Assembly (NCBI GenBank): GCA_040768745.1 | Contig: JAXGMI010000001.1 | Span: forward strand, 160,001 to 224,000 | DNA length: 64,000 bases | Direction of reading: 5' to 3' | Source of the DNA: Desulfomicrobium sp. | GTDB lineage: Bacteria; Desulfobacterota; Desulfovibrionia; Desulfovibrionales; Desulfomicrobiaceae | Shown here: positions 13,740-22,412 of the stretch, piece after piece | Layout: every line of letters starts with the position of its first letter | How positions within the stretch are numbered: position 1 is the stretch's first letter | Program-made: the position numbers and the translations under genes | Notes under the pieces: generated by a model | Seen by the model: only the letters and a program-made list of their open reading frames with translations | Told to the model about the DNA's origin: nothing | The model's database searches: none

Positions 13740-13786
13740 AGGCAACACAGTTGCGCCACGCTTGACTTCATGCAATCGTGTTGCAT
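13740..13786. promoter_or_regulatory. Two tandem Zur-like boxes upstream of znuA
   Basis: aGGCAACacaGTTGCgc (13740-13756) and ATGCAAtcgtGTTGCAT (13770-13786) flank TTGACT (13762-13767). Both resemble the ATGCAAC-N3-GTTGCAT motif I recall for Desulfovibrio Zur. Confidence 0.75.
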
Positions 13787-13816
13787 AGATATTTTTGCAG
13801 AATCATGGAGAAAGTC

Positions 13817-14716
13817 ATGAAAAATATGCTGGTTGTTCTCATCCTGATAATTTCCACCCCCATGCTGTCCTGGGCGGAGAGCTCCGTATTTGTGACCATC
13901 GCTCCGCAAAAATTCTTCGTCGACAAAATCAGCGGCGGCCAAATCCCGGTCTCGGTCATGATCACACCCGGCGCCAACCCACATGCCTACGAACCCAAAC
14001 CAAGCCAGATGGCCATGCTGGCCAGGGCGGAGGTCTATTTCGCCATTGGCGACAGCTTTGACCGGGTCTGGCTGGAAAGACTGAAGAAGGTCAACCCCAG
14101 CATGGCCGTCGTGCACACGGACGCGGGCGCGACCAAGATCCCCATCCATGACGCAAGCCAGGGTCATGGCAAGGCCCCGCCCCGCACGGAGGAGGACGGC
14201 CCGCATTCCCATGGAGGATGGGAAGGATCTGACCCGCATATCTGGCTCGATCCGAAATTGGTCGAGATCCAGGCCGCCCATATCCGCGACGGCCTGACAG
14301 CGGCAGACCCGGCCCATGCCGCCGCCTATGCCGCCAACTACGCGGCCTTTGTCCGGGAACTGGACGAGATGGATCGGGAAATCAGGGTTCTCCTCGCCCC
14401 CATACCGAAAGCCAGGCGCACATTCCTCGTGTTCCATCCATCCTGGGGCTATTTTGCCCGAGCCTATGGCCTGAACCAGGCCTGCATCGAAGTCGAGGGC
14501 AAGGAACCAAGCCCCCGTGAACTGGCTCGCATCATCGACATGGGTCAGAAGCAGGGTATCAAGGCGGTCTTTGTCCAACCGCAGTTCTCGGAAAAAAGCG
14601 CTGCCGTCATCTCCGAACAGATCGGCGCCCGGGTGGTCCGGCTTGATCCCCTGGCTGAAAACTGGGCCGAGAACTTGCGCCACGCCGCCCGCGTCCTGGC
14701 CGAGAATCTGCAATAG
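13817..14716 (+). CDS. znuA: Zinc ABC transporter substrate-binding protein
   Basis: Signal peptide, PHAYEPKP, His-containing loop, DPHIWLDP, HPSWGYF. Confidence 0.9.
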   Translation: MKNMLVVLILIISTPMLSWAESSVFVTIAPQKFFVDKISGGQIPVSVMITPGANPHAYEPKPSQMAMLARAEVYFAIGDSFDRVWLERLKKVNPSMAVVHTDAGATKIPIHDASQGHGKAPPRTEEDGPHSHGGWEGSDPHIWLDPKLVEIQAAHIRDGLTAADPAHAAAYAANYAAFVRELDEMDREIRVLLAPIPKARRTFLVFHPSWGYFARAYGLNQACIEVEGKEPSPRELARIIDMGQKQGIKAVFVQPQFSEKSAAVISEQIGARVVRLDPLAENWAENLRHAARVLAENLQ

Positions 14717-14776
14717 GCATCCTGCTGCAGTGCGGAATCTCCGCACCGATCACCTGTAACAAGCCTAGGGAAAGCC

Positions 14777-15658
14777 ATGCCTTCCGACCATCTTTGCTCG
14801 ACCTGCTCCGGCCATGGACTCAGCCCTCTCCCAGAGCCCAAACTCCGGCTCTCCACCCCTCCCGGACAGCCGGTCATCGAACTCGATGGCGTGTCGTTCT
14901 CCTATGACAACCGGGAAGTGCTCTTCGATGTCAACCTGACTGTCAGGGCAGGGGAGTTCATGGCTGTGGTTGGACCCAATGGCGGGGGCAAGACCACCCT
15001 GGTCAAACTCGCCCTCGGACTGCTCAAGCCAGGAAGAGGCACGGTCCGCGTTCTCGGCGCCGACCCCCTGGTTTCCAGGCCTGCCGTGGGCTACGTGCCT
15101 CAACATGCCCACGTGCAGCCCAGCTTTCCCATAACCGTACTGGATGCCGTGCTCTTGGGTCTGCGCCGCAAGGGCGGACTCTTGTCCTGGGGGCACTGGC
15201 CAGGGTACCGGTCCGCGGACAGACAGAAGGCCATGGACTCCCTGCGCATGGTTGACATGGCCGACCTGTCCGGACGCAGGTTCGATGTCCTGTCCGGAGG
15301 ACAAAAACAACGCGTGCTGGTGGCCCGGGCCCTGGTTTCTGAACCAGCCCTGCTCCTTTTTGACGAACCCACTTCCAATATCGATCCCCAGGGCAAAATC
15401 TGTCTTTTCGACCTGCTCTCGATCCTGAGTGAGTCCATCACCATCGTCATGGTCAGCCACGACCTCATCACCACGTCCACCCGCATCACCAGCGTGGCGG
15501 CAGTCAATCGCCGACTGATCCAACATCACGGCCGGGAACTGACCCCTGACATGCTCGCCCTCATCTACGGCACCCACGACGCCACCTGCCCCATGGACGA
15601 GTACATCAAGGGCCTTTCCTCCGTCTTCGGGGAAAGCAGGCAACGGAGGCAGCCATGA
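14777..15658 (+). CDS. znuC: Zinc ABC transporter ATPase
   Basis: [23 protein letters not shown]. Confidence 0.9.
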
Positions 15659-16464
15659 CCGAAATTTTGGGTCTTGCGTTCATGCACAACGCCATTCTGG
15701 CCGGGGTATTGGCCAGCCTGGCCTGCGGGCTCATCGGCTCCCTGGTGGTGGTCAACCGGCAGGTCTTCATGGCCGGTGGGGTCGCCCACACGGCGTACGG
15801 GGGGGTTGGATTGGCTTTTTTCCTAGGCCTGCCGGTACTGCCCTGTGCCGTGGGTTTCACCGTTCTTGCGGCCCTGGCCATGGCTCACGCGTCCTTTGGC
15901 CGGACCGAACGGGCTGATGCCCTGGTCGGCATCATGTGGGCTGCCGGCATGGCCTTTGGCATCATCCTCATGGACCTCACGCCCGGATACAATGTGGACC
16001 TGATGAGCTACCTCTTCGGCAGCCTCCTGGCCGTGCCCACCAGCGACATACTGATCATGGCAGTCCTGGATCTCGCCATCCTTGCCGTGGTCCTGTTCTG
16101 GTACAAGGATTTTCTGTCCCTGTCCTTTGACGCCGAGTTCGCCCTTTCCACCGGAGTGCCTGTCCGCCTGCTCTACACCCTCATGCAGGTCATGACCGCA
16201 GTGACCGTGGTCATGGTCATTCAGGTGGCCGGATTGATTCTGGTCATTGCGCTTCTGACCATCCCACCCATGCTGGCTGAACTCTTCACCAGTTCCCTGT
16301 GGAAAATGATGGCCCTGGCCACCCTGGCCAGCCTGGTCTTCTGCCTGGCCGGCCTGGCCCTGTCCTGGCACCTGGACCTGACATCAGGGGCAAGCATCAT
16401 CGCCTTTGCAACGGCTGCCTATCTTGGGGGATGGTGGATGCAATCCTGGCGGAGACGGGCATGA
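15655..16464 (+). CDS. znuB: Zinc ABC transporter permease
   Basis: Hydrophobic; AHTAYGG and YLFGSLL; operon context. Confidence 0.9.
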   Translation: MTEILGLAFMHNAILAGVLASLACGLIGSLVVVNRQVFMAGGVAHTAYGGVGLAFFLGLPVLPCAVGFTVLAALAMAHASFGRTERADALVGIMWAAGMAFGIILMDLTPGYNVDLMSYLFGSLLAVPTSDILIMAVLDLAILAVVLFWYKDFLSLSFDAEFALSTGVPVRLLYTLMQVMTAVTVVMVIQVAGLILVIALLTIPPMLAELFTSSLWKMMALATLASLVFCLAGLALSWHLDLTSGASIIAFATAAYLGGWWMQSWRRRA

Positions 16465-16931
16465 ACTCCAGGATGACCGTGAAGATGGCCAAGGATCGCC
16501 TGGCCAAATCAGGGCTGGAAGCCACTGACCATCGGGTCCGGGTGCTCATGGCTGTGGGCAACACCACGCACCCCACCACGGTCCCGGAAATCCTGGAACT
16601 GGTCCGGGTCAGCAGGGATATCAACCGCGTCACGGTGTACCGGATTCTGGATTTGCTGGTGGAACACGCGGTCTTGAACCGGCTCGGACTCGGAGAGAAG
16701 TCCCAGCGCTTCTGTCTGCGAGAGATGGACAGCCCTGGAGAGCACCCCCACTTCCACTGCACCCGTTGCGACCGTTACCTGTGTCTGGATGCACCGAGCC
16801 TGCCCATCGACCGGGGCGCCCTGGCCAGACTGGCTCTGGACATCGACCACGTGGAAATCCACCTGGAAGGAATCTGTCCAGCCTGCCAAGGAAAAGAGTC
16901 TCTGTCCGATTCCGGGAAGGAGTCCGATTGA
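16461..16931 (+). CDS. zur: Fur-family regulator, probably Zur
   Basis: TVYRIL, HFHCTRC and GICPAC; ends the znu operon. Confidence 0.8.
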   Translation: MNSRMTVKMAKDRLAKSGLEATDHRVRVLMAVGNTTHPTTVPEILELVRVSRDINRVTVYRILDLLVEHAVLNRLGLGEKSQRFCLREMDSPGEHPHFHCTRCDRYLCLDAPSLPIDRGALARLALDIDHVEIHLEGICPACQGKESLSDSGKESD

Positions 16932-17064
16932 TCCCCTGGCGCAGAGTTGCCTGCACCGCCATGCACGCAGCGGGCGGAGTCAAGACGCCCTAGTTCCCAT
17001 CCTTGCCAGATTCGTCCCGGGCATTTACAAACGGCCCTGGTCTTCACCATTCAAGGAGCCGGAT

Positions 17065-17790
17065 ATGAAATTCCCTTCTTTCACCCTTCAGACCCTCGGC
17101 ATTCTTGCCCTGGCCGCGGGCTTAGGTCTGGCCTTCAACGCCAACCGGCCGGACAGTCTGCCGTTAGTCCGTGTCCACGAAGTCGCGGTCCAGGCTTCCC
17201 CGCAGGACAATGAAATAACCCTGCACGACGCGGCCCAGCTTTCTGCGTCCGGACAGGCTGTCTTCGTCGATGCGCGCGATGCATCGGACTATGCCCAGGG
17301 ACATATCGCCGGGGCCTTGTCCCTCCCGGCCTTTTCCTTTACCCAGGACTTCCCCTTGGTGCGGGACAGCCTCCACAACTCGACGGTCATCACCTATTGC
17401 GACGGCGAACACTGTGAGCTGAGCCGTGACCTGGCCGAACAGCTGAAGGCTCATGGCCTGCGCAATGTCCGCGTGCTCAAAAATGGCTGGACTCTGTGGC
17501 GGGACAAAGGGCTGCCCACCGCCACGGGCCAGGAACCCCTGCTCCGGGAACCCCAGGAACTGGAACATCCGGCGCAGGAATCCCTTTCGCAGGAGACCCC
17601 GCGGCTGGAGCATGCGCCGCAACAGACCATGCCGGACGGGCCTGCGCCAGAGCAGTCAACGCCAGAGGGGATCGCCCACCCGCAGGAGCCGGCGCAAGAA
17701 AAGTCCGCGCCGCAGGAAGCCACGCCGCAGGAACCGTTGCTCCAAAAGACTCCGCCCCAAGAATCAAAGCCCACGGGAGACCAATCATGA
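17065..17790 (+). CDS. Exported rhodanese-like protein with Pro/Gln/Glu-rich tail
   Basis: N-terminal hydrophobic helix, VDAR..GHIAGA, TYCDGEHC, LKNGW. AAGGAG RBS. Confidence 0.8.
   Translation: MKFPSFTLQTLGILALAAGLGLAFNANRPDSLPLVRVHEVAVQASPQDNEITLHDAAQLSASGQAVFVDARDASDYAQGHIAGALSLPAFSFTQDFPLVRDSLHNSTVITYCDGEHCELSRDLAEQLKAHGLRNVRVLKNGWTLWRDKGLPTATGQEPLLREPQELEHPAQESLSQETPRLEHAPQQTMPDGPAPEQSTPEGIAHPQEPAQEKSAPQEATPQEPLLQKTPPQESKPTGDQS
17529..17765 (+). repeat. Degenerate ~15-bp coding repeats encoding xxPQE units
   Basis: Recurring CCGCAGGA/GCAGGAA/CAAGAA units giving EPQE, PAQE, LSQE, HPQE, APQE, TPQE and PPQE. Confidence 0.6.
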
Positions 17791-18227
17791 CTGCAACAGG
17801 CTTGGCCCAGGCTTCGCGCATGGCTTTGGCATGTGTTTTTCTCGCTGCGGCCCCACATAAAATCCTGGTTCCGGCGGAGTTCGCCCAAAGCCTGTCCAGC
17901 TACCAGATTCTTCCGGACATGCTGATCAATTTCATCGCGCTCACCTTGCCTTGGCTGGAAATGCTCGTGGCCTTCCTGCTCCTCTGCCAGGTCTGGACAG
18001 GGCCGTCCCTGCTCCTGGCCAACGCGATGCTCACGGTTTTTCTCGGGGCCCTCGTCCTAGCGTACGTCAGGGGGATCGACATAGCCTGTGGGTGTTTCAG
18101 CTCCTTACGCACCCCTTCTGACGCCATGACCCTGTACATCGCGCGGGACGCTGCGTTCCTGGTTCTGGGTCTGATCGCGGCCTGGTTGCACGCAAACGGC
18201 CTGAAAAGAAAGACACTGGATGGATGA
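17787..18227 (+). CDS. MauE/DoxX-family membrane protein
   Basis: LPWLE and RGIDIACGCF motifs with about four hydrophobic segments; overlaps the rhodanese stop. Confidence 0.85.
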   Translation: MTATGLAQASRMALACVFLAAAPHKILVPAEFAQSLSSYQILPDMLINFIALTLPWLEMLVAFLLLCQVWTGPSLLLANAMLTVFLGALVLAYVRGIDIACGCFSSLRTPSDAMTLYIARDAAFLVLGLIAAWLHANGLKRKTLDG

Positions 18228-18436
18228 CCTGCAGCGTCAGATCTCAGCCAGCTTGATGGCCAGCGTACCTGGCCGCCTGAAAAGGGTGGGGCGTGATGGC
18301 TGGGGTTCGGGGCGCTGATTTTCACCCAGCCAAGGTTATGCCTGCACTGCTGCGGTGTCTGCGGCTCGGGTTTGCCTTCCTTGGGCGGCCTGCATGCGGG
18401 CCGCAGGGCCCGCAAAAAGTGTCAGGCCAGCGCAAA

Positions 18437-19105
18437 TTATCTCCCGCCTGAATCAGAAGCCCCGCCATCAAGTGGCAGAATGGCCACCTGAACCACCCCC
18501 TGAAGAAGGCGGGCAAACTCCCTGGCATCGCTGTCGCTGCCAACCAGCGATCCGTAATGCATGGGCACAGTCAGACCAGGCATGATGTCTTTGGCCGCAG
18601 CCGCAGCTTCGGCCGCTGTCATGACGTAGGTGCCTGAAACGGGCAGCATGGCCACATCGACCCGGATACCCGTCATTTCAGGGATACGATCTGTGTCTCC
18701 GGCGTGGTAAAAGCGAAGTCCGTCCATCAGGAGCACAAAACCAAGCCAGCCGTTTTTTTGGGGATGAAATTTCTTGCCCACGTTGTAGGCGGGCATCACC
18801 TCCACCCTCACCCCGGCCACGTCGAGTGTGTCTCCCGGAACCACGATGCGCACATCACCCGTGAGTTTCTTCAACCCTGTTTTTTCAGTCACAATGATCG
18901 TGTCCGGCCTCGCGATTTTGGCCACATCCTCCGACGAGCAGTGATCGTAATGACTGTGTGTGATGAGGATGAGGTCGGCCTTGGGGCCTGCCTGGATCTG
19001 ATACGGATCGATGTACACAATCCTGGAGCCACGGATCAGGAAAGACGAATGGCCAAACCAGGTCAACATGTCTTGAGGAATGGTCATGGATGCCTCCGTA
19101 CTCAT
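18437..19105 (-). CDS. MBL-fold metallo-hydrolase
   Basis: WFGHSSF, THSHYDH, HAGDT, PMHYG. Confidence 0.9.
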   Translation of the reverse strand: MSTEASMTIPQDMLTWFGHSSFLIRGSRIVYIDPYQIQAGPKADLILITHSHYDHCSSEDVAKIARPDTIIVTEKTGLKKLTGDVRIVVPGDTLDVAGVRVEVMPAYNVGKKFHPQKNGWLGFVLLMDGLRFYHAGDTDRIPEMTGIRVDVAMLPVSGTYVMTAAEAAAAAKDIMPGLTVPMHYGSLVGSDSDAREFARLLQGVVQVAILPLDGGASDSGGR

Positions 19106-19938
19106 TAGGCCATCGTTTCATCGAGAAGCTGACCCAGACGCTCCAGATGGGCCTTCTCCTCGCCCGCGATCTGCTCCAGAATCTGCCGGTTCTCGTCGCT
19201 TTTGGTCCAGGCTGCCGCTCGCGAATAAAGGTCCAGGGCCTGGGCTTCGATGGACATGGCCATGGACACGACATCCACCACACTGTCGAAGTCTGGTTTG
19301 AACCGGTCCATGTAGTCCTCGGTAGTCAGCCCCCCCTCCATGAACGGCGAGACCAGGGAACACTCAAAAGCCCCCCGGTCGTCTTGCCCTGTCAGGCGGG
19401 TATACTCGGCAAAAAGCCGGTCCTTGTGCTTGATCTCGATCTCAGCCAGCAGGCGGAAGACGCTTTTGACCCTCTCGTCCTGAACCCGGTCCAGCATCTT
19501 CAGATAGAAGTCCCGCAGCCCGTCTTCGAGAGAATAGGCCATGGCCAGAATCTTTTCAGCGCTGTTCAGTTCGGCAAACAGGTCCACCCCTTCATCTTCC
19601 CCCCCGAACGCGCTCTGCCCGTTCCAGGCCTTATAGCCACCACTCAGATTGATGACATGATCGTATCCCTTGCCCGACAGGGTCTGGGAGGCCACCCGGC
19701 TGCGACCGCCGATGGCGCAATAGACAACCACAGGCTTGGAAGGATCGATCTCCTCCAGCCTGTCGGTCAGCTCGGGCAATGGAACCAGCTTGGCCCCAGG
19801 GATATGTCCGGCTTCGTATTCGCCCGGTTGACGGACATCGAGGATGGTCACCTCCTGCAGGGTCTTGTCGGACAGGTATTCCCTGACATCTGCAGCACTC
19901 ATGGATTGGACCGGTGTAAAGAACTGTTTCCAACGCAT
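19105..19938 (-). CDS. Rhodanese / ferritin-like (rubrerythrin) fusion protein
   Basis: LDVRQPGEYEAGHIPGA and YCAIGGRS, followed by ExxH di-iron-type motifs (EIKH, EKAH). Confidence 0.8.
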   Translation of the reverse strand: MRWKQFFTPVQSMSAADVREYLSDKTLQEVTILDVRQPGEYEAGHIPGAKLVPLPELTDRLEEIDPSKPVVVYCAIGGRSRVASQTLSGKGYDHVINLSGGYKAWNGQSAFGGEDEGVDLFAELNSAEKILAMAYSLEDGLRDFYLKMLDRVQDERVKSVFRLLAEIEIKHKDRLFAEYTRLTGQDDRGAFECSLVSPFMEGGLTTEDYMDRFKPDFDSVVDVVSMAMSIEAQALDLYSRAAAWTKSDENRQILEQIAGEEKAHLERLGQLLDETMA

Positions 19939-20010
19939 AGGGCACTTCCTCCCACGATATGTGATTGATCATGCCTCTGGATGGATGAAAATTCAACATG
20001 TCTTGGTGTG

Positions 20011-20045
20011 TTGACATGAAGCCACGCTTATCGTTAATTTACGAT
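20011..20045 (+). promoter_or_regulatory. Sigma70 promoter with overlapping palindromic operator for arsR-hgcAB
   Basis: TTGACA (20011-20016), 17 nt, TTAATT. The near-palindrome ATCGTTAATTTACGAT (20030-20045) covers the -10. Confidence 0.65.
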
Positions 20046-20065
20046 CATACTGTCATGGAACACGC

Positions 20066-20335
20066 ATGAACAAAGATCACAATCTGGCCGTGCTCTGCAA
20101 GGCCCTGGGGCACCCAGCCCGGGTGGCCATCCTCCGGCATCTGCTGCAGGTGGACCGCTGCATCTGCGGCGACATCGTGAACATCCTGCCCCTGGCCCAG
20201 TCCACGGTCAGCCAGCACCTCAAGCAGCTGAAGGAGGCCGGTCTGATCCGCGGTGAGATTGAAGGACCGTGCATCTGCTACTGCGCGGACAAAAATCGCC
20301 TGGCCGAACTCAAAAACCTCATCACCGCACTGTAG
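20066..20335 (+). CDS. arsR: ArsR/SmtB-family repressor
   Basis: [31 protein letters not shown] and Cys-rich CICYC. Confidence 0.9.
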
Positions 20336-20341
20336 GCCCTT

Positions 20342-21526
20342 ATGAAACCGCTGCAGCCCTTTCCCATGGCGCCTTCCGGATCCTGCGAGGCTCCTTGCTC
20401 AGGGACCGAAATCTCCAAGCCGACCCCCTCGGCTCCGGGAGCGTGCTGAGGACCTCCGCCGGCCCCTGGTGCAGGGGTGGACGACCTTCCTGGCTATCGC
20501 ATCGAACCTTATGTGGATACGTTCATGCCCACCGCCGCAGGGCGCATTCCTCGCGTCCGGACCAGTCCCACGGCCTGGGACCGGCTCGGGACCTGCCGGG
20601 CCCGGCTGGGCCTGGACCGCAATCAATATATCGTCAACCCTGGCCTTTTTGCCGTAGGCCTGCCCGACGCCGGTTCGCCCGTGGTCGTCACCGCCAACTA
20701 CAAGCTGACCTTCGACACGGTCCGCTTCGCCCTGGCCGGGCGGGACGTCTGGCTGCTGGTGGTGGACACGCGCGGCATCAACGTCTGGTGCGCGGGCGGC
20801 AAGGGCACCTTCAACGCAGCCGGCGTCAGCGAGCAGGTCAGAAAGACCGGGCTCGAGCGCGTCGTGTCCCACCGTCAGCTGATCCTGCCCCAGCTCGGGG
20901 CCAACGGAGTGCGGGCCCTCGACCTGCGCAGGACCTGCGGGTTCGAGGCCGTGTTCGGACCCGTCCGGGCCGAGGACCTGCCCCGCTACCTGGACCAAGG
21001 CATCGACGAGGCCATGCGCGAGGTGACCTTCACCCTGCGGGAGCGGGCCACCGTCATCCCCGTGGAGCTGGTCCTGGGCTGGAAGCCCATCCTGGGCGCC
21101 TTGGCCGTGGCGGCGGTCCTGAGCCTTTTCGGGTACGGATTCTCCCTCGGGGCCGTCTGGAGCCGCTGGCTGGTGGCGGCAGGAGGCACCATCATGGGCC
21201 TCTTCTGCGGCGCGGTCCTCTTCCCTCTGCTCCTGCCGTGGCTGCCGCGCGCCTTTTCCCTGGGGGGGGCCGGACTCGGGCTGGCCGGCGCCCAGGTGCT
21301 GCCCCTTTTCTTCCCGCACGCCCCCTGGCCGGCACTGGCCGGGGCGGGGATGTGGACCGCCGTCCTCTCGTCCTGGCTGGGCCTCAATTTCACGGGTTCC
21401 ACGCCCTACACCTCGCCGTCGGGCGTGGAGAGGGAGATGCGCCGGGCCATCCCGGTTCTGGCGGCCTGCACCCTGCTGGCGTTGGTCCTGTTCGTGGCCG
21501 GAGGCTTCGCCGGTGGATCGGCATGA
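20342..21526 (+). CDS. hgcA: Mercury methylation corrinoid protein HgcA with probable selenocysteine-containing N-terminal extension (TGA 20447-20449)
   Basis: TANYKLTFD and cap-helix NVWCAGGKGTF, C-terminal TM helices, FTGSTPYTSPSGV; followed by hgcB. ATG 20342 is in frame through TGC-TGA. If the TGA is a real stop, the start is 20477. Confidence 0.95.
20450..20481 (+). promoter_or_regulatory. Candidate bacterial SECIS hairpin
   Basis: GCCCCTG-GTG-CAGGGGT stem-loop with a G-containing loop about 20 nt after the in-frame TGA. Confidence 0.6.
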
Positions 21527-21798
21527 AACGCTACCGCCACCTCGAAAACGTGACCACCTTGACCTATGACAAAGCCAAGTGCGTGGGCTGCGGCCTGTGC
21601 GCCACGGTCTGCCCGCACCGCATCTTCGCCCTGCAAGGCGGCAAGGCCGAAGTCCTGGACCGCGAGGCTTGCATGGAGTGCGGGGCCTGCGCCCTGAACT
21701 GCCCCACCGCGGCCATCACGGTCACACCCGGTGTGGGCTGCGCCCAGTACATCATCCAGACCTGGTTGCCGGGCAAGCGCAGGACGTCCTGCTGCTGA
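21523..21798 (+). CDS. hgcB: Mercury methylation ferredoxin HgcB
   Basis: CVGCGLCATVCP, CMECGACALNCP, GVGCA and C-terminal CC; ATGA overlap with the hgcA stop. Confidence 0.95.
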   Translation: MKRYRHLENVTTLTYDKAKCVGCGLCATVCPHRIFALQGGKAEVLDREACMECGACALNCPTAAITVTPGVGCAQYIIQTWLPGKRRTSCC

Positions 21799-21857
21799 AT
21801 CCTTGACCACGGCCCCGAAATGGCTGATCTTTTCGCTTCCAAATCACGGAGGACACC

Positions 21858-22412
21858 ATGCTCGACCGCGCTGAAGCGCTGGCCTTGCTCAAGGCCAGCG
21901 CCCCCGACCAACTCTATGTCCACGCCCTGGAAACCGAAGCCGTCATGCGCGCCCTGGCCGAACGCCTCGGCCACAATCAGGAGGTCTGGGGCCTGGCCGG
22001 TCTGCTGCACGACCTCGACTACCCGGAAACCAAGGACACGCCCGGAAAGCACGGCCTGCTGACCGCGGAAACCCTGACCGGCAAGCTGCCGGACGACGCC
22101 GTGCAGGCCATCGCCCGCCACAACGAGATGAACGGCAACCTGCCCCAGACCCCCTTCGACTTCGCCCTGCGCTGCGGCGAGACCGTCACCGGGCTGATCC
22201 ACACCGCCGCCCTGGTCCGCCCCACCCGCATGCAGGGCATGGAGGCCAAGAGCCTGAAGAAAAAGATGAAGGACAAGGCCTTCGCCGCCTCGGTCTGCCG
22301 CGAAACCATCAAGGAATGCGAGAAGATCGGCCTGGAGCTGGCCGACTTCCTGACCCTGGCCATAGGAGCCATCACGGGCATCGAGGCCGAGGTGGGACTG
22401 GCGGCGTCCTGA
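21858..22412 (+). CDS. HD-domain metal-dependent phosphohydrolase
   Basis: HALETEAVMRALA, GLLHDLD, HG; GGAGG RBS. Confidence 0.85.
   Translation: MLDRAEALALLKASAPDQLYVHALETEAVMRALAERLGHNQEVWGLAGLLHDLDYPETKDTPGKHGLLTAETLTGKLPDDAVQAIARHNEMNGNLPQTPFDFALRCGETVTGLIHTAALVRPTRMQGMEAKSLKKKMKDKAFAASVCRETIKECEKIGLELADFLTLAIGAITGIEAEVGLAAS

What the first reader, a model, noticed from the sequence alone, without database searches (positions are those of the whole stretch)
20342..20481. HgcA carries a hidden Cys-Sec N-terminal extension with a SECIS-like hairpin
Seen: ATG 20342, 6 nt after the arsR stop, reads MKPLQPFPMAPSGSCEAPCSGTEISKPTPSAPGAC-TGA-GPPPAPGAGV. This continues in frame into the ORF-track start at 20477, with a single TGA at 20447-20449 directly after a Cys. 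A hairpin CCCCTG-GTG-CAGGGG lies about 14-28 nt downstream. Established: bacterial Sec insertion uses UGA plus an adjacent downstream SECIS, and from memory CU-containing HgcA extensions have been reported. Inference: HgcA here is a selenoprotein with a C-x3-C...CU arm that could capture Hg or release MeHg, which would tie methylation to selenium supply. Standard gene callers truncate it.
Basis: partly seen in the sequence, partly recalled or inferred. Interest (0 to 1): 0.85.

Follow-up and report, generated by a model that had tools for sequence, protein, structure and literature searches.

The report
Selenocysteine arm of HgcA, already published
The mercury-methylation gene hgcA here has an open stretch of 45 extra codons with one in-frame UGA right after a cysteine codon, which is very likely read as selenocysteine to give a predicted flexible arm that would handle mercury; this trait of the HgcA family was published in 2022-2023, so this is an ordinary new member whose arm function is still untested.

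Summary
Real, and already known for the family. ATG 20342 opens a frame with one TGA (20447) after Cys35 that runs into hgcA (NF040863, 373 bits, cut-off 275). The genome has selA, selB, selC and selD. C-TGA-G-P stands in 28 of 29 evaluable hgcA loci from the order (one C-TGC). An MKPLQP-like start is in frame in 24 of 29, across nine arm lengths. The GTG at 20477 is not a start codon in 10 of those 24. The hairpin alone folds no better than shuffles. It does show compensatory changes at three pairs, A/T-fixed synonymous sites, and the geometry of this genome's selD, fdh and hysA hairpins. Haft and Gwadz (2022/2023) described CU-extended HgcA in 20 of 20 proteins examined, and this scan found it in at least 7 other genomes. 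Corrections: the C-x3-C pair is not conserved (8 of 24), and the motif here is ACUGP, not the published PCUGP. AlphaFold gives residues 1-52 low confidence. Selenocysteine incorporation and a mercury-handling role are inferred, not shown. A probably arm-less HgcA methylates Hg in E. coli lysate, so the arm is likely an accessory.

The parts
20066..20335 (+). ArsR/SmtB-family regulator upstream of hgcA, likely co-transcribed
   Evidence: NF033788 71.1 bits, cut-off 55; same arrangement reported for P. mercurii ND132
20342..20344 (+). Likely true start codon of hgcA
   Evidence: MKPLQP-like start in frame in 24 of 29 loci; overlaps the upstream stop as ATGA in 5 of 22 rows shown; Met9 (ATG 20366) is an alternative, ATG in 20 of 24
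20342..20371 (+). Conserved N-terminal tip MKPLQPFPMA
   Evidence: Pro3, Leu4 and Pro6 invariant in 23 of 23 with synonymous codon variation
20372..20443 (+). Variable Pro/Ser/Ala-rich linker, including non-conserved Cys15 and Cys19
   Evidence: Start-to-Sec length 21-53 codons, nine lengths, frame always kept; CxxxC in 8 of 24; pLDDT <50
20444..20455 (+). Cys35-Sec36-Gly-Pro motif (TGC TGA GGA CCT); TGA at 20447-20449
   Evidence: C-TGA-G-P in 28 of 29, C-TGC-G-P in 1 of 29
20460..20480 (+). Predicted bacterial SECIS hairpin (core 20462-20478, GUG loop 20469-20471); it contains the GTG 20477 that the ORF list uses as start
   Evidence: 94.7% of cells paired, 3 pairs with changes on both sides; A/T-fixed fourfold sites; similar geometry at selD, two fdh genes and hysA
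20342..21526 (+). hgcA, 394 aa with Sec36; cap motif NVWCAGGKG with Cys150; C-terminal helices
   Evidence: NF040863 373 bits, cut-off 275; model
21523..21798 (+). hgcB ferredoxin, ATGA overlap with the hgcA stop; Cys form (GVGC) with C-terminal CC
   Evidence: NF040864 124.7 bits, cut-off 99; GVGC in all hgcB sites printed

Best explanation
hgcA likely starts at ATG 20342, and the in-frame UGA at codon 36 is very likely recoded as selenocysteine by SelB on the hairpin 14-28 nt downstream, giving a 394-aa HgcA whose predicted disordered N-terminal arm carries a Cys-Sec pair that would bind Hg(II) and likely speeds, but is not required for, its methylation. Shown: the open frame, the TGA, the hairpin, the sel genes, and conservation of all of these. 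Inferred from established bacterial Sec decoding (my knowledge): SelB-GTP-Sec-tRNA binds the apical loop, and under selenium shortage translation would stop after 35 residues. Inferred mechanism: selenolate plus thiolate out-compete solution thiols for Hg(SR)2 and hand Hg to the methyl-cobalamin site at Cys150 or to the HgcB C-terminal CC. The linker only supplies reach, since its length and its extra cysteines vary freely.
For: selA 628 bits, selB 366 bits, selD 324 bits with its own in-frame TGA, tRNA-Sec 83 bits. C-TGA-G-P in 28 of 29 loci, never TAA or TAG, once TGC. Nine arm lengths all keep frame. Hairpin covariation score 0.199 against 0.106 shuffled (0/500) and at most 0.076 when slid. 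Loop codon GGT in 22 of 22, CCT and GCA in 20 of 24 each, with all four CCC matched by GCG; none of 129 background fourfold columns is 80% or more A/T. In 30 phylum-wide loci a stem of 6 bp or more follows 9 of 11 CU sites and 0 of 9 CC sites. Published precedent, 20 of 20. Residues 1-52 have pLDDT <50.
Against: No protein-level evidence here or in the papers seen. Fold energy is no better than shuffles. Two of the five covariation measures were not above shuffles (52/500, 338/500); the sequences are kin and the structure was derived from them. selA is near universal in this group (48 of 48 near-complete genomes), and the one Cys-Cys locus also lies in a genome with selA, so co-occurrence does not discriminate. 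Three of 30 phylum loci show no CC, CU, UC or lone TGA at this site, and 3 were not parsed. A 37-kDa HgcA numbered as the short form methylated Hg in E. coli lysate; that it lacked the arm is my inference. The Hg-binding role has no direct test, and the model gives no contacts.
Confidence: 0.8

Rival explanations
1. Sec is inserted, but the Cys-Sec pair is a redox device: a selenenyl-sulfide cycle that protects or re-reduces the Co(I)/Cys150 centre or HgcB clusters, or binds another metalloid such as arsenic, rather than shuttling Hg.
For: Vicinal Cys-Sec pairs are redox centres in other selenoproteins (recalled, e.g. thioredoxin reductase tails). CC and UC variants exist (9 and 2 of 30). The upstream ArsR-like regulator of ND132 responds to arsenic and SAH, and the native role of HgcAB is debated (listing).
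Against: HgcB already supplies low-potential electrons (established model). Haft and Gwadz find CU/CC motifs clustered in MerB-like, MerT-like and HgcAB proteins, pointing to metal ligation.
Confidence: 0.25
2. The extension is a regulatory leader. A 35-aa peptide ends at UGA, or UGA read-through acts as a selenium-sensing switch, and working HgcA is made mostly from a downstream start.
For: A short form appears active in E. coli lysate. In-frame GTG and ATG codons lie at 46, 58 and 62. The arm is predicted disordered. A pyrimidine run CCCTTTCCC in the tip is conserved at DNA level.
Against: GTG 20477 is GTC, GCC or GTA in 10 of 24 loci and sits inside the hairpin stem. Cys before and Gly-Pro after the TGA are invariant in 29 of 29. 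TGC replaces TGA in homologues while TAA and TAG never do.
Confidence: 0.08
3. Chance: a GC-rich open frame upstream of the true GTG start, with an ordinary TGA and an ordinary hairpin.
For: Fold z about 0; 3.9% of genome TGA triplets have such a stem.
Against: Conservation of TGA down to about 41% protein identity, frame-keeping indels, covariation and synonymous-site constraint.
Confidence: 0.01

Closest known systems
Selenoprotein form of HgcA with N-terminal CU extension (Haft and Gwadz, bioRxiv 10.1101/2022.07.06.499078; J Bacteriol 2023 per the reference list of PMC11588087; listed as NF040863, CU, in PMC13188914)
   Same: Single in-frame UGA after Cys, followed by Gly-Pro; extended length 394 aa within the published 363-400; host encodes the Sec machinery; followed by hgcB with C-terminal CC.
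   Different: ACUGP instead of the PCUGP that was invariant in their 20 proteins (A in 9, P in 20 of 29 loci here). A conserved MKPLQPFPM tip, not mentioned in the sections I read. The paper's SECIS check was manual and its server search failed; here covariation was counted.
arsR2-hgcA-hgcB locus of Pseudodesulfovibrio mercurii ND132 (bioRxiv 10.1101/2022.10.17.512643)
   Same: ArsR-family gene directly upstream of hgcAB.
   Different: That paper does not mention selenium (0 hits for 'seleno'). Here arsR ends 6 nt before the extended start. Orthology to ArsR2 was not tested.
Corrinoid iron-sulfur protein large subunit (PDB 2h9a, 4c1n, 4djd, 9fzy)
   Same: Homologous cobalamin-binding domain, residues about 64-218, E about 1e-9.
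   Different: No match to the arm or the membrane part. These 4 were the only hits; no solved HgcA was found by sequence.

Membership tests
HgcA (NF040863) | Score above curated cut-off | tested here: met
   373 bits, cut-off 275
HgcA (NF040863) | Cap-helix Cys motif (N[V/I]WCA[A/G]GK, recalled) and C-terminal membrane helices | tested here: met
   NVWCAGGKG at 147-155, W149 and C150 invariant in 26 of 26; long helices 247-390 in the model
HgcA (NF040863) | Adjacent hgcB with two 4Fe-4S motifs and C-terminal CC | tested here: met
   NF040864 124.7 bits, cut-off 99; ends SCC
HgcA (NF040863) | Methylates Hg | not testable with these tools
   Needs an assay
Sec-containing HgcA (Haft and Gwadz) | Frame extends upstream through a single UGA to 363-400 aa | tested here: met
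   394 aa, one TGA
Sec-containing HgcA (Haft and Gwadz) | CU dipeptide followed by GP | tested here: met
   CUGP
Sec-containing HgcA (Haft and Gwadz) | Exact pentapeptide PCUGP (invariant in their sample of 20; I treat it as a sample trait, not a definition) | tested here: not met
   ACUGP here; P and A interchange among kin, 20 versus 9 of 29
Bacterial selenoprotein gene | selA, selB, selC, selD in the genome | tested here: met
   All above cut-off
Bacterial selenoprotein gene | Conserved SECIS-type hairpin just after the UGA | tested here: met
   Covariation and synonymous constraint; geometry like four other in-frame-TGA genes of the genome. My own rule, not a published SECIS predictor
Bacterial selenoprotein gene | Homologues with Cys at the UGA position | tested here: met
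   L032 CCGP; CC in 9 of 30 phylum loci, some at other offsets
Bacterial selenoprotein gene | Selenium found in the protein | not testable with these tools
   Needs MS or 75Se

The most novel reading that the evidence does not exclude
The Cys-Sec arm is the mercury-capture arm of HgcAB and sets the rate at trace Hg, so MeHg output of most sulfate-reducing methylators is wired to cellular selenium through a UGA checkpoint, and the published enzymology used a crippled, arm-less enzyme. In this lineage the conserved MKPLQPFPM tip is a docking or translational-control element that couples arsR to that checkpoint.
Probability: 0.3. Interest if true: 0.65.

Novelty: new member of a known kind. Interest (0 to 1): 0.2.

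Why it matters
Methylmercury is a food-web neurotoxin made by HgcAB. If the enzyme needs selenocysteine for full activity, selenium supply would act on methylation directly through translation, and constructs and databases built on the short form would miss a metal-binding arm. That idea is already in print and still untested in the papers found. This locus adds comparative support (covarying hairpin, frame-keeping indels, the short start not conserved) and shows that the extra C-x3-C cysteines are dispensable. It adds no new kind of system.

Tried and rejected
(1) Folding energy as SECIS evidence: not above shuffles. (2) C-x3-C as part of a metal site: 8 of 24 (the notebook entry's 7 of 24 was a miscount). 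(3) selA co-occurrence as a test: found in 27 of 28 TGA-bearing genomes, missing only in 69%-complete G022, but also in the Cys-form genome G057 and in 48 of 48 near-complete genomes, so uninformative. (4) A C-terminal CCU in HgcB: the stop is TGA in 21 of 24 loci but TAG in 2 and TAA in 1, there is no hairpin here (stem 2; 7 or more in 2 of 24), and the downstream frame is not kept. The conserved letters are better read as TTGACC DNA. Rejected. (5) Promoter scan 19900-21900: none found. (6) RNA-library contigs cover arsR, the arm and hgcAB in pieces but cannot show transcription, strand or starts. (7) The structure model gives no placement of the arm; no fold search or complex job was run, since neither would place a low-confidence arm. 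(8) The database record of this protein's called length could not be looked up. Smith et al. 2015 (PMC4393432) was not held, and the supplement of PMC11588087 was unreadable, so the construct boundaries there are unverified. (9) Searches for experimental tests of the Sec arm (hgcA+selenocysteine, hgcA+selenoprotein, hgcA+selenium+methylmercury production from 2022, HgcA+N-terminal extension) showed none in listings; subscription papers are not covered.

Full report
Observation. Every coordinate in the finding is right. The arsR gene ends with TAG at 20333-20335, and ATG 20342 follows 6 nt later. The frame is open to TGA 21524-21526 except for one TGA at 20447-20449, codon 36, right after TGC. 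The mechanical ORF list starts the gene at GTG 20477, 349 aa; read through the TGA it is 394 aa. The hairpin CCCCTG-GTG-CAGGGG lies at 20463-20477.

Identity. The protein scores 373 bits on NF040863 HgcA (cut-off 275), the next ORF 124.7 on NF040864 HgcB (cut-off 99), and the upstream ORF 71.1 on NF033788 ArsR/SmtB. The only PDB sequence matches were 4 corrinoid iron-sulfur protein large subunits.

Machinery. The genome (99.99% complete) holds selA, selB and selD above cut-off and one tRNA-Sec. selD, two of the seven molybdopterin-family matches and one hydrogenase large subunit have single in-frame TGAs. Each is followed by a 6-8 bp stem under the same rule that gives 7 bp for hgcA. The hysA-type and hgcA hairpins both have xGUGC at the apex.

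Conservation of the arm. Of 61 genomes searched (own included), 35 matched, and the best 30 loci were fetched. One (L030) is cut by a contig end. Of the other 29, own included, 28 have C-TGA-G-P and one has C-TGC-G-P; none has TAA or TAG. In 24 of 29 an MKPLQP-like start lies in frame 21-53 codons upstream, in nine different lengths, and no out-of-frame copy was printed. The five others are divergent (41-44% identity) with 62-71 open codons upstream. Pro3, Leu4 and Pro6 are invariant in 23 of 23 (L031 left out) while their codons vary, as expected of coding sequence. In 5 of 22 loci shown (L024 and L031 left out), the start overlaps the upstream stop as ATGA. The GTG 20477 position is GTG in 14 of 24 and GTC, GCC or GTA in 10.

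The hairpin. Taken alone it is unremarkable: z-scores between -0.68 and 0.42, and 3.9% of 92,423 TGA triplets in the genome reach 7 bp. Across the 24 close loci (21 distinct), a 9-pair helix is paired in 94.7% of cells, with 3 pairs changed on both sides (12 cells). The covariation score is 0.199 against 0.106 in shuffles (0/500) and at most 0.076 when slid. The pair-count and pair-type measures were not above shuffles (52/500, 338/500), the rows are kin, and the structure came from these sequences. Synonymous sites give a second line of evidence. GGT is kept in 22 of 22, CCT and GCA in 20 of 24 each, and every CCC is matched by GCG. In the gene body these codons make up 6%, 5% and 3%, and none of 129 fourfold columns is 80% or more A/T. 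Four divergent loci use a different sequence that forms an 8-9 bp stem at a similar place.

Wider sample. Among 201 phylum genomes, 63 pass the HgcA cut-off; I examined the best 30. CU was found in 11, CC in 9, UC in 2 and no dipeptide in 5 (two of these have a lone in-frame TGA there); 3 were not parsed. A stem of 6 bp or more follows 9 of 11 CU sites and 0 of 9 CC sites (Fisher p = 3e-4; my own rule, kin not independent, some CC at other offsets). The arm is common but not universal.

Reads and model. A DNA contig (possibly the source sample) and RNA-library contigs from two studies cover the TGA with no difference; a third RNA run did not cover it. None of this shows transcription. AlphaFold2 on 26 aligned sequences, with U read as C, gives pLDDT <50 for residues 1-52 and a confident core from about 53. 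This fits a flexible arm but may also reflect a shallow alignment.

How it most likely works. Shown: frame, TGA, hairpin, sel genes, conservation. Inferred from established bacterial Sec decoding: SelB delivers Sec at codon 36 (about 0.95). Inferred: a Cys-Sec pair on a variable tether captures Hg(II) and passes it to the methyl-cobalamin/Cys150 site or to the HgcB CC tail (about 0.55); a redox or other-metalloid role is the main rival. Zheng et al. (PMC11588087; passages read, supplement unreadable) report MeHg formation in E. coli lysate with a 37-kDa HgcA numbered C93, which I infer lacks the arm, so the arm is probably not essential. They ascribe the inactivity of the purified complex in the second half-reaction to Sarkosyl; the missing arm is an untested further factor.

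What is known. Haft and Gwadz (10.1101/2022.07.06.499078; abstract, passages, sections 6 and 25 read; supplements closed) extended 20 of 20 HgcA genes through one UGA to 363-400 aa with PCUGP. A 2026 review lists HgcA as a CU selenoprotein (PMC13188914; passages). The arsR-hgcAB layout is described for ND132 (10.1101/2022.10.17.512643; passages). Earlier scan notes report the same trait in at least 7 other genomes (unchecked notes, seen after my reading was formed); the look-up for look-alike windows returned nothing. Four searches (listings only for most hits) showed no experimental test of the Sec arm. The differences here are small: ACUGP, and a conserved tip.

Verdict. Observation confirmed; interpretation supported except for C-x3-C; new member of a known kind; interest 0.2.

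Noticed in passing
window 20357-20365: Codons 6-8 CCC TTT CCC: the Phe codon is TTT in 22 of 22 Phe-bearing close loci, against 25% TTT in the hgcA body and 40% in early codons genome-wide; no conserved fold found. Kin are not independent. Possibly a DNA/RNA-level signal; unexplained.
   Followed up: partly
window 21803-21808: TTGACC just after the hgcB stop is kept in 18 of 24 loci, ahead of the HD-domain gene (21858-22412); likely a -35 box, though the strict promoter scan found none.
   Followed up: partly
L032:1285-2208 (G057) and L036:920-1636 (G038): The only Cys-Cys locus of the close set has an in-frame TAG after 308 codons; L036 keeps the CU arm but hgcA is split, ending at 239 codons. 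Possible pseudogenes or assembly errors.
   Followed up: no
L069, L072, L052, L059: Phylum relatives with reversed U-C (L069, L072) or a lone in-frame TGA without adjacent Cys (L052, L059) at the arm position.
   Followed up: no
window 16789-19938: Neighbours: a rhodanese-domain protein (16789-17790), a metal-dependent hydrolase (18437-19105, minus) and a rhodanese plus ferritin-like fusion (19105-19938, minus) divergent from arsR; all below curated family cut-offs. A Zn/Mn-type ABC transporter cluster lies at 13778-16464, judged from the translations only.
   Followed up: no
G000 C1:18610-25391: Two tandem formate-dehydrogenase-like large-subunit genes, the first with an in-frame TGA and the second without.
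   Followed up: no
one search runs: Runs holding this stretch at half its words or more are digester, sludge, bioreactor, wastewater and manure metagenomes; 12 are flagged as possible sources.
   Followed up: no
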